Position numbers and translations under genes: made by a program | Notes under the pieces: generated by a model | Database searches by the model: none | The model's input: only the letters and a program-made list of their open reading frames with translations | Told to the model about the DNA's origin: nothing | From: Fusobacteriota bacterium | GTDB lineage: Bacteria; Fusobacteriota; Fusobacteriia; Fusobacteriales; JBNJFI01 | Direction: 5' to 3' | NCBI GenBank assembly: GCA_051746725.1 | Contig: JBNJFI010000009.1 | Span: 1-37,715 of the forward strand | DNA length: 37,715 nucleotides | In this document: positions 6,659 through 22,473 of the stretch, piece by piece | Layout of the letters: each line of letters begins with the position of its first letter | Position numbering within the stretch: the stretch's first letter is position 1

Positions 6659-6685
6659 ATAAATCCCCCCATTTCTAAATCTTAT

Positions 6686-6958
6686 TAGCTAGTTGCAAAA
6701 CTCTAACCATTACATTTAATTGCTTTTATTACACTTACTTTTAAGGTCTGCCCCCCTCTAAATCTCCCCCTAGCAGGGGAGACTATCTTTATTTTCTTTC
6801 AAAATTGATTTTTAGAAAACATCTGAATTATTTAAACCCTTGCTACTTTCTTGCTTATCCCGTCCCCTGCCAGGGGGAAGGCTAGGAAGGGGGGCTTTAA
6901 ATTGTTGGTAATTCTGTGGATAACCTAAAATTTTATTCTTCAGTTTTGCAACTACCTA
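6686..6958. mobile_element. MITE-like element copy 1: terminal inverted repeats 'tagctagttgcaaaact' ... 'agttttgcaactaccta' around a GC-rich core built from two inverted ~35-nt hairpin units.
   Basis: Left terminus 6686-6702 and right terminus 6942-6958 are reverse complements of each other. The core has 'gcccccct...tctcccc-ctagca-ggggaga' (6750-6783) and its inverted counterpart 'tcccc-tgcca-ggggg...aggggggc' (6863-6898). This is strongly GC-rich in an AT-rich genome. It is homologous at both ends to the element at 21625-21876. Confidence 0.5.
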
Positions 6959-6964
6959 TAAATA

Positions 6965-7375
6965 TTATATTAAAATCATCTTATTTCCATCTATCTCAGA
7001 AACCTTTACTTTATCACCTTTTTCTAAATCTTTTTTGCAAATTCCCATCCACTCTTCACCAAAAATTTTAACTCGATAATTCCCGTCATCTAATTTTTTT
7101 ATAACCTCAACCTCTTTTCCTATATAAGTTTTATTATTACTTTTATACTCGGTGTTGGGATTAAAAATTTCTTTTTTTCTCATAAAAAAGAAAATCCCCA
7201 TTGATAAAATTATATCTATAATTATTAACATAGTTATATCTTCTATCCATAAAGATATTATGCCAGTTATCAAAGTTCCAACTCCTATTCCAAAAAATAT
7301 AAAACTAGATGGGGTAAACATCTCTAATATAATTAGAATTATTCCCAAAATAAATAAAACTTCTGTTATTCCCAT
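6965..7375 (-). CDS. NfeD-like membrane protein (TM N-terminus, C-terminal OB-fold).
   Basis: Hydrophobic N-terminal half, then 'YRVKIFGEEWMGICKKDLEKGDKVKVSEIDGNKMILI', typical of the NfeD C-terminal beta-barrel. The RBS is 'ggaaggagg'. Confidence 0.7.
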   Translation of the reverse strand: MGITEVLFILGIILIILEMFTPSSFIFFGIGVGTLITGIISLWIEDITMLIIIDIILSMGIFFFMRKKEIFNPNTEYKSNNKTYIGKEVEVIKKLDDGNYRVKIFGEEWMGICKKDLEKGDKVKVSEIDGNKMILI

Positions 7376-14505: not shown

Positions 14506-15560
14506 TTATCTTCGTTCTACAGCTATTTTTGCTAATTGTTTTATTAATTGTGACATCAAACTTTGAAATTCTTTATAACTTTCTTCCAAAGACATTTCCG
14601 ATAAATCTTTTCCTTCTACTTTTTCACCTTTTATTGCAGAAAGTAAATTTATTCCATCTTCATAATCTTTTACTATTTCATCTTTTGATCTTTCTATTTC
14701 TACTTCTTGCTTTGCCCCTTCTGAACCTATTGCTTTAATTACTTCAGATATTACCTTTTGAAATTCTTTATAACTTTCTTCCAAAGACATTTCCGATAAA
14801 TCTTTTACTTTTACTTTTTCATTTTTTATTGCAGAAAGAACATTTGATGCATCTTTATAATCTCTTATAATCTCTTCTTTTGATTTTTCTATAGCTATTT
14901 CCCTTTCAGCACCTGCTAATCCTAATTCTTGAACTAACATTGATATTATGTTCTGGAACTCTCTATAGCTTTCTTCCAAGGACATTTCCGATAAATCTTT
15001 TTCTTCTACTTTTTCACCTTTTATTGAAGAAAGTAAATTTATTCCATCTTTATAATCATTTATAATTTCTTCCTTTGATCTTTGAATCTTTAACTCTTGT
15101 TCAGCTCCAGCTTTACCTAAAGCTTCTATTAATTGTGAAATTACATTTTGAAATTCCTTATAAGCTTTTTCTGTTGTCATTTCATCCAATTTTTTCGCTT
15201 CTTTTTTCTCTCCTGTTAGTAAAGATAAAAGTTTTATACCATCTTCATAATCCTTTATGATATCAAGCTTTAATGATAATCCTTCAGTTTCTTGAACTCT
15301 TGTATTTAAAGCTCTAGATAAATGACCCATTATTTTTTCCATTACATTTTGAAATTCCTCATAAGCTGCAGCTGGCGTCATCTTTGTTAAGTCTTTCTTT
15401 TTAATCTCTTTTTCTTCTATTATTGATAACATTTCTAGTGCATTTTCATAATCTTCATTGATTTTGTTAATTGGTTTTTCAAATCCTTGTTTATACAATT
15501 CTTGTCTGATTTGATTATTTGTAGCCTTTAGAGTATCATAAAGTTCCTCTTCTGACATTG
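14506..15560. repeat. ~195-bp tandem DNA repeats (about 5 diverged copies) inside the lipoprotein CDS.
   Basis: The near-identical segment 'ctttataactttcttccaaagacatttccgataaatctttt' recurs at about 14573, 14766 and 14961. The period equals 65 codons. Confidence 0.7.
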
Positions 15561-15786
15561 TACTTACATCTTTGGACTTAACTTCCTCCCCTGTTAATGT
15601 TGCTAATATTTTTCTATTTAACTTATAATCTTTCTTTAAAGTCTCTGACAATTGACTCTCTACTTTCTCCTCTTTTACAGCTTTAGATTCCATAGCCTTA
15701 GATTCTTCCGTCTCACTAGTAGTACACCCTCCAATTAGCAACAATGAAGACAATAAAACACCAAGCATAAAATTTCTCTTTCTCAT
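14506..15786 (-). CDS. Lipoprotein made of about five and a half tandem copies of a ~65-aa helical repeat. Function unknown.
   Basis: Signal peptide plus lipobox 'LLLIGGCTTS'. The repeat unit is roughly 'KDLSEMSLEESYKEFQxxISxLxxxLGxAGAxxExxIExSKEEIIxDYKDGINLLSxIKGEKV'. The RBS is 'gggagggg'. Confidence 0.7.
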   Translation of the reverse strand: MRKRNFMLGVLLSSLLLIGGCTTSETEESKAMESKAVKEEKVESQLSETLKKDYKLNRKILATLTGEEVKSKDVSTMSEEELYDTLKATNNQIRQELYKQGFEKPINKINEDYENALEMLSIIEEKEIKKKDLTKMTPAAAYEEFQNVMEKIMGHLSRALNTRVQETEGLSLKLDIIKDYEDGIKLLSLLTGEKKEAKKLDEMTTEKAYKEFQNVISQLIEALGKAGAEQELKIQRSKEEIINDYKDGINLLSSIKGEKVEEKDLSEMSLEESYREFQNIISMLVQELGLAGAEREIAIEKSKEEIIRDYKDASNVLSAIKNEKVKVKDLSEMSLEESYKEFQKVISEVIKAIGSEGAKQEVEIERSKDEIVKDYEDGINLLSAIKGEKVEGKDLSEMSLEESYKEFQSLMSQLIKQLAKIAVERR

Positions 15787-17742: not shown

Positions 17743-19524
17743 TTATATCATTTCCTCTTCTTTTTCAACAACTCCAGTTAAATCATTGAAGTTGAAATCC
17801 ATTGCTAATATAGCTACAAATTCATCTTTTTCATTGGTTACAGGAGTAGATGCTGTAAAGCATAATTTCCCAGTTGTTTCTGATATGTAATAATCTGTAA
17901 CATGTGTTTTTCCATCTGATAAAACTTGTGAAAACCAAGGTCTATCTGTTCTGTCATCACCTTTTTTGGAAATATTATCAGATTTTTTCTTTAATTCTTT
18001 TTGAGATATATTCTCTGTTATCTGAATACCTTCTGCATCTGTCATATAAACCATTTGTATATATTTATTTTCTTCTATAACATTGCTTAATACCGAACAT
18101 ATTTTTTCATAATCCATACTCTTTATTTCAGGTAATTCAGCATACTCTTTGATAAGTTCTTTTACTTTTTGAGTTGTCTTTTCTCCAATTTTTTCAAACT
18201 CTGTTTTAAATAATTCTGGCATATGTTTTCTTGTTAACTCATACATTTCATCGTTTGAGATTGCAGTAGTTCTACCATTATCATATTGTTCATCAATCCA
18301 TCTATATATTTTAGTTATTTTTGGATGCTTTTTACTTATTTTTTCTTTAGGATTTAAGTTTGCATTTATCCAATGTGTTATCCCGGCAACACCTGACTTA
18401 TCAGTTATACTAACTTTAAGCGGTCTATCTAATATAGTAGTTGTATCAAAAATATTATATATTTCCTCATTTTTTATTGCACCATCTGCATGAATCCCTG
18501 CTCTAGTTACATTAAAATCCTCTCCAATAAAAGGATATCGTCTAGAAATTGCAATTCCCATTTCATTTTGCATAAATCTAGCTATATCTGTGATTACTTT
18601 AGTATTAATAGTTTCATCATGACCTTTAAGAGACATGTAATCCATAATCAAACCTTCTATAGGTGGGTTTCCTGTTCTTTCTCCTATTCCCACTAAAGTT
18701 CCGTTAACTGCTGCTGCTCCATACATCCAAGCAGCTGTTCCGTTAACTAAAACTTTATGAAAATCATTATGCCCATGCCATTCAATTAATCTAGAAGGCA
18801 CACCTAATTCAGATTTTAAAATTTGGATCATTTTAGGAACAGATCTCGGAATTTCAACAGATGGAAACGGAACTCCATATCCCATTGTATCACAAAGTCT
18901 AATCTTAACATCAACACCAGATTTCTTTGAAATTTCCATTAGACCTTCTACAAATGGAATAACCACTCCTCTAAAGTCTGCTCTAGTAATATCTTCTAAG
19001 TGACATCTTGCAACTATCCCTTCACTTACAACAGTTCTAACAACATCTAGATATTTATTAATTATTGTTTTTCTATCACTTTTTAATTTTTTATAAATAT
19101 GGTAGTCTGATACAGATGTTAATATTCCCGTTTCTTTTAATTCTAAGTCTTTAACAAGTTCAAAATCTTTTTTGCTAGCTCTCATCCAACTTGTTATTTC
19201 AGGAAATTTTAAACCTAAATTTTTACAGCTTTCCACTGCTCTTCTATCTCTATCACTATATAGAAAAAATTCAGTCTGTCTTATCAACCCCTTTTTTCCA
19301 CCTAATTCATTTAGATATTTATATAATTTTACAATATGGTCCTCTTTAAAAGGAGCCATTGATTGTTGTCCATCTCTAAAAGTTGTATCTGTTATCCAAA
19401 TATCCTCTGGCATATCTGGAGTTATTATTTTATTTTCCATTTTTATTTTTGGCACTTCTTTATAACTAAATGTATCTCTAAGTAAATTTGGCTTTTCTAA
19501 GTTTATCAATCTGTTATTTTTCAT
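17743..19524 (-). CDS. Fusion protein: N-terminal DRE-TIM metallolyase domain (LeuA/homocitrate-synthase/HMGL-like) plus C-terminal Cache-like (PAS-fold) ligand-binding domain.
   Basis: N-terminus: 'TDTTFRDGQQS' (cf. LeuA 'DTTLRDGEQS') and 'HGHNDFHKVLVNGTAAWMYGAAAVNGTLVGIGERTGNPPIEGL' (cf. LeuA 'HCHND...GIGERAGN'). C-terminus: 'DRPWFSQVLSDGKTHVTDYYISETTGKLCFTASTPV...DEFVAILAMDFNFNDL', the classic Cache/sCache signature (RPWY...DPY.D..TG.LVIT.S.PV...G.LGVDI.L..L). No TM segments. Confidence 0.65.
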   Translation of the reverse strand: MKNNRLINLEKPNLLRDTFSYKEVPKIKMENKIITPDMPEDIWITDTTFRDGQQSMAPFKEDHIVKLYKYLNELGGKKGLIRQTEFFLYSDRDRRAVESCKNLGLKFPEITSWMRASKKDFELVKDLELKETGILTSVSDYHIYKKLKSDRKTIINKYLDVVRTVVSEGIVARCHLEDITRADFRGVVIPFVEGLMEISKKSGVDVKIRLCDTMGYGVPFPSVEIPRSVPKMIQILKSELGVPSRLIEWHGHNDFHKVLVNGTAAWMYGAAAVNGTLVGIGERTGNPPIEGLIMDYMSLKGHDETINTKVITDIARFMQNEMGIAISRRYPFIGEDFNVTRAGIHADGAIKNEEIYNIFDTTTILDRPLKVSITDKSGVAGITHWINANLNPKEKISKKHPKITKIYRWIDEQYDNGRTTAISNDEMYELTRKHMPELFKTEFEKIGEKTTQKVKELIKEYAELPEIKSMDYEKICSVLSNVIEENKYIQMVYMTDAEGIQITENISQKELKKKSDNISKKGDDRTDRPWFSQVLSDGKTHVTDYYISETTGKLCFTASTPVTNEKDEFVAILAMDFNFNDLTGVVEKEEEMI

Positions 19525-20065: not shown

Positions 20066-21472
20066 TTAAAAAGTGGATAATCCACTCCACTCTTGAAATC
20101 TATATACCCAATATTTAAACTTTGATTTATCTTCAAATTTAGAATAATCTACAGTATAAATCCCTTCTTTATTATTCCAAAGTCTATCAAATGATTCAGT
20201 AACTTCTTTTGTAAACTCTATATCTTTAGGAACACTTATTTTTAAATTAGTTTCTAAATTATAATCCCCTATATTTCGCCGCGTGTAATTTGCAGATCCA
20301 CCTATTACAATAGATTCATTATTTTTTTCAATATATATATATTTCGTATGGAATTGCTCTCCTTTAGTATTTGCCCATCGAATTTTTATGTCTGTCTCCT
20401 TTTTTAATTCATAAGCAACTTGTCTATTAGGAATCCCTGGTTTTTCTCTACCAAATGCGTCTTTATTAGGATCCAAAATCATTTTTATCTCTACTCCTCT
20501 ATTAGAAGCTTTTTTGAATTCCTTTATAATTTTTCGATCTGCTATATAAAACATTCCAAGGTTGATCTTATCCCCTTTTTTGCAATCGCTTATTTCTCTT
20601 ATAACAGATTCTCTTATCTTTCCCTCTGTAATTACTTTTACTTTAAAATTTTTAGTAATATCTTTACTTATATTTTCTGGTTTATTTTGTTTTTTATATT
20701 TTACTCCATTTAAATCAGATCCAGATAATTTCGCAACTGCACGTTCTGTATCCAATAAATCACCTAAAATTTTCCCTTCTAATATAAATGCAATATTTGA
20801 ATGATAAGAACTTGCATCATGAGGATTCCCAGATGTTACAATTGCTTTTTTGTCTGTAATAACAACCTTTCTATGATTTGCTTTAAAATTAAGTAATTTC
20901 AAATAAGATCTTAGAGTTACTTTAGGAGCATTATCGGTAAATGGATTTGGTAACCAACCATTTCCAGAAGTTCCAAACCACTGAAAAAATACTTTCCATA
21001 TAGAAGACCAGAGCTTATTACTATCTTTCAATTTATTTAAATCTGTTATAATTACTTCTATATCATTTTCTTTTAACCTTCTAAACATTTCATTTTCATA
21101 TGATCCATAAAAATTGTTTATTTCATCAGATATAACTATTATTTCTATGTTTTCTTCTCTGTTTTTAGCTTCAATTAAAGAATCAGTTAACTGTCTAGAT
21201 AAATCTATAAAAGAATCTCCTTTGTCATAATAATTATTATATAAAAACATATCTATTATTATATATTCTTTTGCTTCATCAATAATCGTGAATATGTTTT
21301 CAAATATCTCCTGCTCATGGACTCTTTTTCCATCTTTAATATAAGTTATATCGTTTAAAAATTCTACATTTGAAGTTCTTCTAACTGGCGTTTCAACTGA
21401 TATCCCCTTGGGTAAACCCCGACATCCAAGATTAAAAAGTATTAACAATCCTAGTAATGTATTTTTTCTCAT
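20066..21472 (-). CDS. Secreted/lipoprotein phospholipase-D-family protein with two HKD motifs (cardiolipin-synthase/PLD-like).
   Basis: Signal peptide '[17 protein letters not shown]'. HKD motif 1 'NHRKVVITD...TSGNPHDAS'. HKD motif 2 'FHTKYIYIE...[11 protein letters not shown]'. Confidence 0.8.
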
Positions 21473-21562
21473 TTTTTTCCTTTCCTAGATATAATTATTT
21501 TAATCAATATAATTATATCATATTGTTATATTTTTTTCAAAGCTATTAAATTTGAGATTAAC

Positions 21563-21591
21563 TATAAAATCTAAATATAATATGTTATAAT
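21563..21591 (+). promoter_or_regulatory. Candidate extended -10 promoter (TGtTATAAT) reading toward the element and the J-domain gene.
   Basis: 'tgttataat' at 21583-21591 with a weak -35 'tataaa' 17 bp upstream. The same 'atgttataat' motif appears in the permease promoter at 32367-32377. Confidence 0.3.
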
Positions 21592-21610
21592 AGGGATATA
21601 ATCATTTACT

Positions 21611-21890
21611 AGAATATAAAATTAGGAAGTTGCAAAACTAAAAAGATAAGATATCAAGTTTTCCACAGATTTATTAACAGAATTAGTTTTGGGGATGCGG
21701 TCGAAGGCTCTTCGCCCTTACATTTCAGATTACGTAGGGATAAAGAATATCAGTTTTTCTGTAAGGGCAAATGGCGTTTGCCCGGGTGTGAGCAGTATAT
21801 AAAAATGGAGGGAAGCCTTAATTATCAGGTCTAATAAATTAAATAAAATCAGTGAATTACAATTTTGCAACTAGCTAGAATATAAAATTA
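21611..21890. mobile_element. MITE-like element copy 2 (21625-21876, inverted relative to copy 1), flanked by a perfect 14-bp direct repeat 'agaatataaaatta' (21611-21624 and 21877-21890).
   Basis: Termini 'ggaagttgcaaaacta' (21625-21640) and 'attttgcaactagcta' (21863-21878) are inverted repeats. About 55 bp at each end align with the copy at 6686-6958 in reverse-complement orientation, including a shared 'ttaagg' 53-54 nt in and a shared 'ctgtgga[a/t]aac' near the other end. The GC-rich core differs and contains hairpins 'cgaag-gct-cttcg' and 'gggcaaa-tggcg-tttgccc'. Confidence 0.5.
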
Positions 21891-22008
21891 AAAGGGGGCC
21901 ATTATCAATACCAATAAAATTGAAAATCTTATAATTAAAATTTTAAAAAAAAATAAAGCTGGATTAACCGAACATAACCTTATTTTAAAATTACAAAAGA
22001 AATCTTTT

Positions 22009-22473
22009 TTGCCCAAGACTTCCCACTCAGATTCACTATCAATATTTCAAGTACATTTTATTTTGTTTAATACTCTTTATAAATTAAGAGAAAAGTTACT
22101 AAAAGCAAAAAAGGGAATTTTAGATATCCATACTTTAGAAATCAAACTTAAGGATTTCAAAAAAGGAAATAAAGGGATCTCAGAATACGATCCCCTAGCA
22201 GAATATTATTTGGATATTTCGAATTTAGAAAATACTACAAAAAAGGATGTAGAAGACCTTTTAGATAGTTTCTGGAAAAAATATTTGGCTAAAGATTATA
22301 AAGTCGATGCTTTAAAAGTTTTGGATCTTAAAGAACCAGTTGATTATAAAACTATAAAATCTAAATATAAAAAATTGGCCTCTAAATATCATCCTGATGT
22401 TGGAGGAGATATAAAAAAAATTCAAATTTTGAACCAAGCTATGGAAACTTTAAATAATTATTATGGAAAATAA
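22009..22473 (+). CDS. J-domain (DnaJ-like) protein with C-terminal J domain. TTG start as called by the track; the true start may be further upstream.
   Basis: C-terminal 'DYKTIKSKYKKLASKYHPDVGGD' with the HPD motif. The reading frame is open upstream to 21892 ('KGAIINTNKIENLIIKILKKNKAGLTEHNLILKLQKKSF...'), directly after the strong RBS 'aaaggggg' (21891-21898). No canonical start codon sits there (ATT 21901 / ATC 21904). Confidence 0.7.
   Translation: MPKTSHSDSLSIFQVHFILFNTLYKLREKLLKAKKGILDIHTLEIKLKDFKKGNKGISEYDPLAEYYLDISNLENTTKKDVEDLLDSFWKKYLAKDYKVDALKVLDLKEPVDYKTIKSKYKKLASKYHPDVGGDIKKIQILNQAMETLNNYYGK

What the first reader, a model, noticed from the sequence alone, without database searches (positions are those of the whole stretch)
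21583..21900. Element copy 2 has a perfect 14-bp target-site-like duplication and sits between a promoter and the RBS of the J-domain gene
'agaatataaaatta' occurs at 21611-21624 and again at 21877-21890. It immediately flanks the TIR-bounded 252-bp element. A perfect 14/14 direct repeat is the signature of a recent insertion, either a target-site duplication or insertion into a site-specific target. An extended -10 promoter (TGtTATAAT, 21583-21591) lies about 40 bp upstream of the element. The strong RBS 'aaaggggg' (21891-21898) of the J-domain gene lies 1 bp after the right repeat. The whole GC-rich structured element would therefore be transcribed as a ~290-nt 5' leader. Its core hairpins ('cgaag-gct-cttcg', 'gggcaaa-tggcg-tttgccc') could act as a cis-regulatory RNA structure, for example thermosensor-like control of a chaperone-type gene, or simply as a passenger.
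Basis: partly seen in the sequence, partly recalled or inferred. Interest (0 to 1): 0.6.

Follow-up and report, generated by a model that had tools for sequence, protein, structure and literature searches.

The report
Small transposon inserted before a gene
The flagged segment is a 255-bp non-coding miniature transposon (a MITE derived from an IS1182-like insertion sequence) that recently jumped in just upstream of the ribosome-binding site of a DnaJ-related gene; it is an ordinary kind of mobile element, not a temperature-sensing RNA, though its family lands next to ribosome-binding sites unusually consistently.

Summary
The perfect direct repeat is 16 bp (21609-21624 / 21875-21890) and flanks a 250-bp segment with terminal inverted repeats.

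- **Copies:** a second copy lies at 6686-6958. A third is in a Haliovirga-related metagenome contig (L026). The orthologous Haliovirga abyssi locus has no element.
- **Origin:** one arm matches the end of an insertion sequence on a provirus contig (L036). That transposase's C-terminus is homologous to IS1182-like transposases (DUF772/DDE). Those insertion sequences have near-identical termini (TAGGnnnTTGCrAAAC) and exact 10-14-bp AT-rich target duplications. Copy 2 is therefore a MITE, termini 21623-21877, with a duplication of 11-16 bp.
- **Thermosensor idea, not supported:** no Rfam match, and the leader folds no better than shuffled sequence. Predicted ribosome-binding-site accessibility is the same with and without the insert at 15-45 °C. 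The three interiors are unrelated and precede unrelated genes.
- **Unexpected:** all three MITE copies and about 11 of 13 independent full-length relatives sit 13-17 nt upstream of a purine-rich Shine-Dalgarno motif, nearly always in one orientation. Random positions meet the strict test 3.3% of the time.

Verdict: a new member of a known kind, of modest interest. The target preference deserves follow-up.

The parts
21552..21581 (+). Promoter-like site TTGAGA-18-TATAAT upstream of the insertion
   Evidence: 11 of 12 consensus positions. This is a consensus match only; no transcription data exist.
21583..21591 (+).
   Evidence: Read. Its TATAAT (21586-21591) was not among the two-hexamer sites listed.
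21609..21624 (.). Left copy of the perfect 16-bp direct repeat CTAGAATATAAAATTA. The strict 11-bp target duplication GAATATAAAAT is 21612-21622.
   Evidence: Termini were fixed by homology with insertion sequences that have exact duplications.
21623..21877 (-). MITE copy 2, 255 bp, TAGGAAGTTGC...GCAACTAGCTA. The strand given is the orientation of the parent insertion sequence: its left-end (IRL-type) terminus is at 21877 and its right-end (IRR-type) terminus at 21623. Non-coding; core GC 43% against 27.7% for the window.
   Evidence: The only ORF inside is a 46-aa TTG frame on the minus strand.
21623..21639 (.). IRR-type terminal inverted repeat TAGGAAGTTGCAAAACT
   Evidence: Homologous to TAGGTAGTTGCAAAA of the L036 insertion-sequence end.
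21659..21667 (+). Conserved subterminal block containing TTTTCCACA, which resembles a DnaA box. Copy 1 and L036 have the perfect TTATCCACA.
   Evidence: Alignments. The DnaA-box resemblance rests on my own knowledge of the consensus and was not tested.
21702..21714 (+). GC-rich hairpin cgaag-gct-cttcg in the element core
   Evidence: Not conserved in copy 1 or L026.
21765..21783 (+). GC-rich hairpin gggcaaa-tggcg-tttgccc in the element core
   Evidence: Not conserved in the other copies. No T-run follows it, and no terminator-like site was found.
21861..21877 (.). IRL-type terminal inverted repeat AATTTTGCAACTAGCTA. TTTTGCAACTAGCTA is identical in all three copies.
   Evidence: Compare GTTTTGCAATCAGCTAA in the C. 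tetani insertion sequence and GTTTCGCAATTACCTA in the Roseburia and Butyrivibrio ones.
21875..21890 (.). Right copy of the 16-bp direct repeat. The strict 11-bp duplication is 21878-21888.
21891..21898 (+). Purine-rich Shine-Dalgarno-like run AAAGGGGG. It is probably also the motif next to which this family inserts.
   Evidence: The same geometry appears in copy 1, L026 and about 11 of 13 related insertion-sequence sites.
21919..22473 (+). DnaJ-related gene (Pfam DNAJ_related plus DnaJ). The start shown is NCBI's ATT. The frame is open from 21892, and the first canonical start is TTG at 22009.
6686..6958 (+). MITE copy 1, 273 bp, shown in parent-insertion-sequence orientation (IRL-type end at 6686). 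It lies between the NfeD stop codon and the ribosome-binding site of a chemoreceptor gene. It is a long imperfect hairpin.
   Evidence: I12; z = -4.2.
6676..6685 (.). Decayed target duplication of copy 1, TAAATCTTAT. Its partner is TAAATATTAT at 6959-6968 (9 of 10 identical), and that partner contains the NfeD stop codon.
   Evidence: In the sliding-window test the 10/12 match had p about 0.065, which is suggestive only.

Best explanation
Bases 21623-21877 are a non-autonomous miniature inverted-repeat transposable element (MITE). It keeps about 55 nt of the right end and about 70 nt of the left end of an IS1182-like DDE insertion sequence. These arms flank a GC-rich hairpin core that differs between copies.

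A transposase supplied in trans, which is not encoded in this contig, inserted it with a staggered cut. That cut duplicated 11 bp (GAATATAAAAT). The repeat reads as 16 bp because adjacent flank bases match the element's termini. The repeat is still perfect, so the event is recent.

The insertion site fits the family's preference: a few nucleotides upstream of a purine-rich Shine-Dalgarno motif, with the left-end (IRL) terminus facing the gene.

The element carries no terminator in the gene's direction. It is probably read through from the upstream promoter-like sites as part of a leader of about 300 nt. In that RNA the terminal repeats pair and close the insert into a separate domain, leaving the ribosome-binding region as accessible as before. 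It is most likely a tolerated passenger.

- **Shown:** the anatomy, the existence of a family, the link to an insertion sequence, the duplications in relatives, and the position relative to the Shine-Dalgarno motif.
- **Inferred:** mobilisation in trans, read-through transcription, and neutrality.
For: - **Repeat and inverted repeats:**
- **Family:** copy 1 at 6686-6958 shares both arms but not the core. A third copy is in metagenome contig L026.
- **Absent at an orthologous locus:** the gene downstream of the L026 element is 81% identical to Haliovirga abyssi P0130. The syntenic SpoIIE/cNMP-binding intergenic region there has no element.
- **Insertion-sequence origin:**
  - L036 carries TTATAGGTAGTTGCAAAA...GGTTATCCACAGAA, matching the copy 1 arm.
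  - On the opposite strand, an ORF that runs off the contig ends about 120 nt inside that terminus. Its last 61 residues are 42% identical to a C. tetani plasmid transposase (tblastn E = 3e-5 against 7.3 Gb) and 37% identical to the 485-aa transposase of the 1755-bp insertion sequence.
  - Those transposases carry DUF772 and/or DDE_Tnp_1. Their best NCBIfam hit is IS1182.
- **Shared termini:** TAGGCGTTTGCAAAAC, TAGGCGCTTGCGAAAC and TTAGTCGCTTGCAAAAC in the relatives, against TAGG(T/A)AGTTGCAAAAC here.
- **Exact duplications in relatives:** 10, 10, 11, 11 and 14 bp, all AT-rich.
- **No transposase in the window**.
- **No terminator-like site** in 21350-22050.
- **Shine-Dalgarno accessibility unchanged** by the insert.
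Against: - No autonomous partner with both matching ends was found. L036 has only one end, and the similarity of its baseplate gene to a Clostridium phage suggests a Clostridia prophage rather than Fusobacteriota.
- The transposases score far below NCBI's IS1182 cut-off (65-74 bits against 270). The family assignment is 'IS1182-like', not established.
- A 16-bp perfect repeat is longer than any duplication seen in the relatives (maximum 14). The 11-bp reading requires 3+2 flanking bases to match the termini by coincidence, roughly p = 0.002 by my estimate.
- The duplications of copy 1 and L026 are only suggestive (9/10 and 8/11).
- No empty site exists for this exact locus.
- Transcription was not measured.
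- GC-rich cores persist in all three copies within a 28% GC genome. That hints at some selection, which pure neutrality does not explain.
Confidence: 0.8

Rival explanations
1. The element has been co-opted as a cis-acting RNA element. The stem of 13 or more bp formed by the terminal repeats, or the GC-rich core hairpins, would serve as an RNase III or other processing site, an mRNA stabiliser, or a translational or thermal switch for the downstream gene.
For: - All three copies are in the same orientation, immediately upstream of a ribosome-binding site.
- All keep GC-rich hairpins (core GC 41-43% against 27.7%).
- Copy 1 folds far better than shuffles (z = -4.2).
- The terminal-repeat stem appears in every predicted fold.
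- From my own knowledge: Correia elements in Neisseria are co-transcribed MITEs whose inverted-repeat stems are cut by RNase III.
Against: - The copy 2 leader is no more stable than shuffles (z = 0.01).
- The Shine-Dalgarno region is unpaired to the same degree with and without the insert, and shows the same temperature trend.
- Core sequences are unrelated between copies.
- The downstream genes are functionally unrelated.
- No Rfam match.
- Position and orientation are shared by full-length 1.75-kb insertion sequences. They are therefore explained by insertion preference rather than by RNA function.
Confidence: 0.12
2. The insertion disturbs expression of the DnaJ-related gene. It could uncouple the gene from its promoter, supply a promoter of its own, or drive antisense transcription from the former transposase promoter. 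Alternatively, the gene is already decaying.
For: - A promoter-like site lies inside the right arm (TTATCA-16-TAAAAT, 21822-21849, 9/12). A minus-strand site (TTGATA-18-TATATT, 21908-21879) reads into the element.
- The gene has no canonical start codon. The annotated ATT start is 20 nt from the G-run.
Against: - These are weak consensus matches in a 28% GC sequence. The scan found 9 sites against 4.6 expected by chance.
- The arm promoter's -35 is not conserved in copy 1 or L026.
- The reading frame is intact, with full-length Pfam matches.
- The lack of a start codon would be the same without the insert, because the duplication does not touch the frame.
Confidence: 0.1
3. The repeat is not a transposition footprint. 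It would be the shared core of a site-specific recombination event, as with a remnant of an integrative element, or the product of a local duplication.
For: A 16-bp perfect repeat is long for a DDE transposon. Part of it overlaps the element's terminal bases.
Against: - No similarity extends beyond the 16 bp on either side.
- The inverted half-sites would be about 20 bp apart in a joined junction, which fits no tyrosine or serine recombinase core that I know of.
- The ends are homologous to DDE-transposon ends that carry exact 10-14-bp duplications.
- No integrase is nearby.
Confidence: 0.03

Closest known systems
Bacterial MITEs derived from insertion sequences by internal deletion. Examples are MITEAba12 in Acinetobacter (PMC6382973, title and abstract seen) and, from my own knowledge, Correia elements in Neisseria, RUP in pneumococcus and ERIC.
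   Same: It is small (255-276 bp) and non-coding, with terminal inverted repeats and a target-site duplication. There are several diverged copies, and its ends are shared with a transposase-bearing insertion sequence. It lies between genes and is probably co-transcribed with them.
   Different: The duplication is long (11-16 bp). The arms are conserved while the GC-rich hairpin cores are unrelated between copies. The copies are placed strikingly regularly, just upstream of a Shine-Dalgarno motif and in one orientation.
IS1182 family insertion sequences (IS5-related DDE transposases). Examples are IS1272 (PMC4923244) and ISPse1 (PMC3281130).
   Same: The transposases linked to these ends have the DUF772 plus DDE_Tnp_1 architecture, and IS1182 is their best NCBIfam hit. 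The inverted repeats are about 16 bp.
   Different: - The scores are far below the family cut-off.
- IS1272 targets hairpins and makes no duplication (PMC4923244).
- ISPse1 makes a 4-bp duplication (PMC3281130).
- This group makes 10-14-bp AT-rich duplications next to Shine-Dalgarno motifs.
ISTde1 subgroup of the IS1202 family, which makes 15-17-bp duplications (bioRxiv 10.1101/2022.12.17.520857)
   Same: It produces an unusually long target duplication, comparable to the 16-bp repeat seen here.
   Different: Its inverted repeats start with 5'-TGT, whereas these start with TAGG. Its transposase type also differs (related to IS481/IS3). It was rejected as the source.
RNA thermometers and other 5'-leader switches. 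ROSE and fourU are the examples I know of; these are from my own knowledge.
   Same: It is a structured segment in the 5' leader of a J-domain gene.
   Different: There is no predicted sequestration of the Shine-Dalgarno region and no temperature-dependent difference from the leader without the insert. There is no family match and no conservation of the hairpins between copies.

Membership tests
MITE (non-autonomous DNA transposon) | Short, with no transposase gene | tested here: met
   The element is 255 bp. The only ORF inside is a 46-aa TTG frame. tblastn found no transposase homologue anywhere in the window.
MITE (non-autonomous DNA transposon) | Terminal inverted repeats | tested here: met
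   TAGGAAGTTGCAAAACT pairs with AATTTTGCAACTAGCTA. The same ends occur in copy 1 and L026.
MITE (non-autonomous DNA transposon) | Direct duplication of the target flanking the ends | tested here: met
   A perfect 16-bp repeat is present, of which 11 bp lie strictly outside the termini. Copy 1 shows 9/10 and L026 shows 8/11 at the same offsets.
MITE (non-autonomous DNA transposon) | Multiple copies at unrelated loci | tested here: met
   There are two copies in 37.7 kb and one in a Haliovirga-like metagenome contig. None were found in 85 kb from relatives. The rest of this genome could not be reached.
MITE (non-autonomous DNA transposon) | Presence/absence polymorphism (an empty site) | tested here: inconclusive
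   The L026 element is absent from the syntenic H. abyssi locus. The flanks are too diverged to define an exact empty site. No relative exists for the copy 2 locus.
MITE (non-autonomous DNA transposon) | An autonomous element with the same ends | tested here: inconclusive
   L036 has one matching end plus the 3' end of a transposase gene, but the contig stops there and it comes from another lineage. Full-length relatives share only the 16-bp termini.
IS1182 family (as the source of the ends) | Transposase meets the NCBIfam IS1182 equivalog model | tested here: not met
   IS1182 is the best hit, but at 74 and 65 bits against a cut-off of 270. Pfam DUF772 and DDE_Tnp_1 are present. It can only be described as IS1182-like.
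IS1182 family (as the source of the ends) | The family's characteristic target behaviour | not testable with these tools
   Published members differ from one another: no duplication with hairpin targeting (PMC4923244), or a 4-bp duplication (PMC3281130). ISfinder's curated table was not available.
IS1202 family, ISTde1 subgroup | Inverted repeats beginning 5'-TGT, with a 15-17-bp duplication | tested here: not met
   The repeat length fits, but the termini are TAGG...CTA with no TGT.
RNA thermometer / translational leader switch | Ribosome-binding site sequestered in a temperature-labile helix | tested here: not met
   The Shine-Dalgarno region is unpaired in the minimum-energy fold. Unpaired probability is 0.61-0.77 with the insert and 0.60-0.75 without it, over 15-45 °C.
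Any described RNA family (Rfam 15) | Covariance-model match | tested here: not met
   No match at gathering score in the window. None at E <= 10 in 21500-22000. L026 gave only chance-level hits.

The most novel reading that the evidence does not exclude
This MITE and the IS1182-like insertion sequences it derives from are transposons that seek ribosome-binding sites. Their transposase would recognise a purine-rich Shine-Dalgarno-type DNA motif (GAAAGGAG, GGAGG or GGGGG). It would insert 3-6 nt upstream of that motif, with a 10-16-bp duplication and with the left end facing the gene.

The evidence is as follows:
- All three MITE copies and about 11 of 13 independent full-length insertion sites show this geometry. 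The sites come from Clostridia plasmids and viral contigs, which belong to a different phylum.
- Eight of the 13 pass a strict test (motif, start codon and an ORF of at least 50 aa), against 3.3% of random positions in the same loci.
- Several sites carry the motif without a long ORF. That favours recognition of the DNA motif over selection on gene starts.

I found no description of such a preference. The searchable library is incomplete.
Probability: 0.4. Interest if true: 0.6.

Novelty: new member of a known kind. Interest (0 to 1): 0.38.

Why it matters
- **For this locus:** the GC-rich 'structured leader' should be annotated as a mobile-element insertion, not as a regulatory RNA. The perfect duplication suggests recent, possibly ongoing, transposition in an uncultured Fusobacteriota lineage known only from this contig.
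- **More broadly:** the family links Fusobacteriota MITEs to an unclassified IS1182-like group in Clostridia plasmids and prophages.
- **Target preference:** that group shows a reproducible preference for the few nucleotides upstream of Shine-Dalgarno motifs. If the transposase really reads that motif, the result would be a rare case of a DDE transposon homing to translation-initiation regions. Such insertions spare both the coding sequence and the ribosome-binding site while separating genes from their promoters. That would bear on operon polarity, gene silencing and activation, and how such elements persist in gene-dense phage and plasmid genomes.

Tried and rejected
- **Rfam.** Searches at gathering score and at E <= 10 found nothing relevant.
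- **Genome collection scan.** The pattern AGTTGCAAAACTN{15,30}TCCACAGA gave 12 hits, all at chance level. Two Cloacimonadota hits proved to be coding sequence.
- **First metagenome scan.** It found nothing.
- **Second metagenome scan.** It gave 18 hits, of which 17 are unrelated. These are other MITE-like families that share the AGTTGCAAAA/TTTTGCAACT ends, phage Xre operator pairs, and chance matches.
- **Other contigs of the same genome.** Retrieval through chemoreceptor paralogues failed because those NCBI proteins are not in the contig index.
- **A chemoreceptor 51% identical, on an ENA contig.** There is no synteny and no element.
- **blastn of both copies against plasmids.** No match.
- **Global MAFFT alignment of L026 against H. 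abyssi.** It was uninformative. Local alignments of the left flank were not significant.
- **The 27-nt palindrome flanking the Butyrivibrio insertion sequence.** I first read it as a duplicated hairpin target. It is internal insertion-sequence DNA repeated because two copies lie in tandem.
- **Origins considered and dropped:**
  - IS1202/ISTde1, because the ends lack TGT.
  - A retron non-coding RNA, because no reverse transcriptase lies downstream.
  - An integron attC site, because the ends do not fit RYYYAAC/GTTRRRY and the genes are ordinary chromosomal ones.
  - Casposon-type 14-15-bp duplications, because there is no Cas1 and the ends are homologous to DDE insertion sequences.
- **An outward hybrid promoter from the TTGCAA in the left end.** The spacing would put the -10 on or after the Shine-Dalgarno motif, so I rejected it.
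- **Pfam and NCBIfam on the 61-aa L036 fragment alone.** They gave nothing. Homology was established by tblastn and blastp instead.
Full report
**Source and context.** The window is a whole 37,715-bp contig of an NCBI metagenome-assembled genome labelled 'Fusobacteriota bacterium'. The length matches the longest contig recorded for its proteins. GC content is 27.7%. Six proteins from the window are each singleton clusters at 90% identity and occur on one contig only.

**The observation.** The 14-mer sits at the stated coordinates. The perfect repeat extends to 16 bp: CTAGAATATAAAATTA at 21609-21624 and 21875-21890. Between the copies lie 250 bp bounded by AGTTGCAAAA and TTTTGCAACT. With AT-rich 24-mers from this window as a null, and offsets allowed to slide, a 12/12 match next to the ends has p = 0.002. 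The observed 16/16 is far beyond that.

The upstream region holds promoter-like sites for both divergent genes. On the plus strand these are TTGAGA-18-TATAAT at 21552-21581 and TGtTATAAT at 21583-21591. A minus-strand site serves the phospholipase D gene. AAAGGGGG follows the right repeat directly.

The downstream frame encodes DNAJ_related plus DnaJ domains. It has no ATG, GTG or TTG before 22009, and NCBI starts it at ATT 21919.

**A family, not a single insertion.**
- A second copy lies at 6686-6958 on the other strand, between the stop codon of an NfeD gene and the ribosome-binding site of a chemoreceptor gene.
- When the two copies are oriented alike they share about 55 nt at one end. That arm reads TAGG(T/A)AGTTGCAAAACT, then GTT(A/T)TCCACAGA(A/T)TTA.
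- They also share about 70 nt at the other end, which finishes with TTTTGCAACTAGCTA. Their GC-rich cores cannot be aligned.
- A metagenome scan using both inverted repeats returned 18 loci. Seventeen are unrelated elements or chance matches.
- One locus, L026 (1,254 bp, 27% GC), is a genuine third copy. It has both arms, a third unrelated set of GC-rich hairpins, and the same position before a ribosome-binding site.
- Ungapped identity over the last 55 nt of the right (IRL-type) arm is 62-67% between copies. Core GC is 41-43%.

**Evidence that it is an insertion.** The gene after the L026 element is 81% identical to a Haliovirga abyssi protein. The H. abyssi locus has the same SpoIIE-then-cNMP-binding gene order and a 241-nt spacer with no inverted repeat and no element. 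The spacers are otherwise too diverged to mark an exact empty site. The conclusion is 'element absent at the orthologous locus' and no stronger. No copy was found in 85 kb from related Fusobacteriota contigs and H. abyssi.

**Link to an insertion sequence.**
- A scan of viral contigs with one arm's motif found L036. There, TTATAGGTAGTTGCAAAA...GGTTATCCACAGAA abuts the stop codon of a phage baseplate gene.
- On the opposite strand, an ORF that runs off the contig ends about 120 nt inside that terminus. Its last 61 residues end in ...IKSLIA.
- That fragment is 42% identical to a Clostridium tetani plasmid transposase (tblastn E = 3e-5 against 7.3 Gb). It is 37% identical to the 485-aa transposase of a 1,755-bp insertion sequence.
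- These transposases carry DUF772 and/or DDE_Tnp_1. Their best NCBIfam hit is IS1182, at 65-74 bits against a cut-off of 270. I therefore call them IS1182-like only.
- Their termini are very close to those of the MITE: TTAGTCGCTTGCAAAAC / GTTTTGCAATCAGCTAA in C. tetani, TAGGCGCTTGCGAAAC / GTTTCGCAATTACCTA in Roseburia, and TAGGCGTTTGCAAAAC / GTTTCGCAATTACCTA in Butyrivibrio pCY360.
- The arm carrying CCACAGA therefore corresponds to the end downstream of the transposase gene (IRR). The arm ending in AGCTA corresponds to the upstream end (IRL).
- No transposase homologue lies in the window.

**Length of the duplication.** Full-length relatives have exact flanking repeats of 11 bp (L046), 10 bp (L050) and 10 bp (L053). 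The two tandem copies in pCY360 have 11 and 14 bp. All are AT-rich and abut TAGG and CCTA.

By homology this fixes the MITE termini at TAGG...GCTA, so copy 2 spans 21623-21877. The duplication strictly outside the termini is then GAATATAAAAT (11/11). The other five bases of the 16-bp repeat, CTA and TA, coincide with the element's own ends. Whether the stagger was 11 or 16 bp cannot be decided.

At the same fixed offsets copy 1 gives 9/10 (TAAATCTTAT against TAAATATTAT). The second of these contains the NfeD stop codon. L026 gives 8/11. Copy 2 is the youngest insertion.

**The regulatory-RNA idea.**
- Rfam finds nothing.
- The copy 2 leader folds no better than shuffled sequence (z = 0.01). 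Copy 1 is a long hairpin (z = -4.2), so strong folding is not a property of the family.
- In partition-function folds of a transcript from about 21592, the Shine-Dalgarno region has mean unpaired probability 0.61, 0.63, 0.71 and 0.77 at 15, 25, 37 and 45 °C. After removing the element and one repeat the values are 0.60, 0.61, 0.67 and 0.75.
- The terminal repeats pair and close off the insert.
Those copies precede a chemoreceptor gene and a cNMP-binding gene.
- No terminator-like site faces the gene. In copy 1 the only terminator-like hairpin is on the antisense strand.

The most economical reading is a tolerated passenger that is transcribed through.

**An unexpected regularity.** In all three MITE copies the IRL-type end is followed by 15-16 nt and then the G-run of a ribosome-binding site belonging to a gene on the same strand.

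To test this without biasing the flanks, I scanned viral contigs with sequence internal to the insertion sequence. That gave 14 loci. Together with the three plasmid copies they make 13 independent sites.

- Reading outward from the IRL, about 11 of the 13 show CTA, then 13-17 nt, then GAAAGGAG, GGAGGG or GGGGGG. A start codon usually follows.
- One site, L053, has the motif on the IRR side, 3 nt beyond its 10-bp duplication. Another, L055, has none.
- Under a strict criterion (Shine-Dalgarno core 8-26 nt out, start codon 3-13 nt after it, ORF of at least 50 aa), 8 of 13 pass. Only 3.3% of 36,000 random positions in the same loci pass.
- Where exact duplications exist, the motif lies outside the duplication. 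It therefore belongs to the target and not to the element.
- Sites with the motif but no long ORF (L040, L043, L046) favour recognition of the DNA motif over selection for gene starts.

Two literature searches found no description of such a preference, which is not proof of novelty. Published IS1182-family members behave differently. IS1272 targets hairpins and makes no duplication (PMC4923244). ISPse1 makes a 4-bp duplication (PMC3281130).

**Verdict.** The mobile-element interpretation is supported and the thermosensor interpretation is not. The object is a new member of a known kind: an insertion-sequence-derived MITE in an uncultured Fusobacteriota lineage. As a locus it is of modest interest. 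The preference of its family for Shine-Dalgarno motifs is the part worth pursuing.

Noticed in passing
L037, L040, L041, L042-L055 (plasmid and IMG/VR loci); window 21878-21898 and 6659-6685: Related 1,755-bp IS1182-like insertion sequences and the three MITE copies sit 13-17 nt upstream of a purine-rich Shine-Dalgarno motif, almost always with the left end toward the gene. Eight of 13 insertion-sequence sites pass a strict gene-start test, against 3.3% of random positions.
   Followed up: partly
window 21892-22011: The DnaJ-related gene has no ATG, GTG or TTG start before 22009, although the Pfam domain begins near 21913. NCBI uses ATT 21919, which is 20 nt from the G-run. ATT 21901 and ATC 21904 are the only other near-cognate options.
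   Followed up: partly
window 6915-6923 (minus strand), 21659-21667; L036 308-316: A perfect DnaA-box-like 9-mer, TTATCCACA, is conserved in the subterminal arm of copy 1 and of the L036 insertion sequence. Copy 2 has TTTTCCACA and L026 has ATAACCACA. It might be a host-factor or transposase-binding site. The C. tetani, Roseburia and Butyrivibrio insertion sequences lack it.
   Followed up: no
window 6722-6928, 21680-21820; L026 about 650-800: All three MITE copies keep GC-rich hairpins (core GC 41-43% in a 27.7% GC genome) that are unrelated in sequence. Copy 1 carries a terminator-like hairpin plus T-run on the strand antisense to the host genes (6763-6782). That could explain why only this orientation is tolerated inside an operon.
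   Followed up: partly
L041 (Butyrivibrio proteoclasticus pCY360, record 63.7-67.3 kb): Two copies of the insertion sequence lie head to tail, separated by the 14-nt CATTTATTTATAAA. One is flanked by an 11-bp repeat and the other by a 14-bp repeat. This implies a second insertion into the duplication left by the first. PLSDB lists no gene there.
   Followed up: partly
L014-L031 (JGI metagenome contigs): At least three unrelated MITE-like families (groups L014/27/28/15/25/31, L019/20/24 and L016/21/29), on contigs of 30-45% GC, share the AGTTGCAAAA...TTTTGCAACT(AG) ends at about 250-bp spacing. L017 and L023 have the same half-sites flanking a small gene I did not scan (labelled Xre-like from reading the sequence).
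   Followed up: no
window 14515-15204: Three tandem 195-bp repeats (74-76% identical) lie inside the 426-aa ORF at 14506-15786 on the minus strand, so the protein has 65-residue repeats (D1).
   Followed up: no
window 17743-19524 (minus strand): NCBI names this 593-aa protein 'triose-phosphate isomerase'. That length is unusual for the enzyme, and the name looks doubtful. I did not run a domain search on it.
   Followed up: no
L036 336-345: The phage baseplate gene in L036 ends at a TAG that lies within the insertion sequence's terminal TAGGTAG. Its homology to Clostridium phage Saumur covers residues 8-301 of 308. The insertion sequence therefore sits right at the gene's end, as copy 1 does at the NfeD stop codon.
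   Followed up: partly
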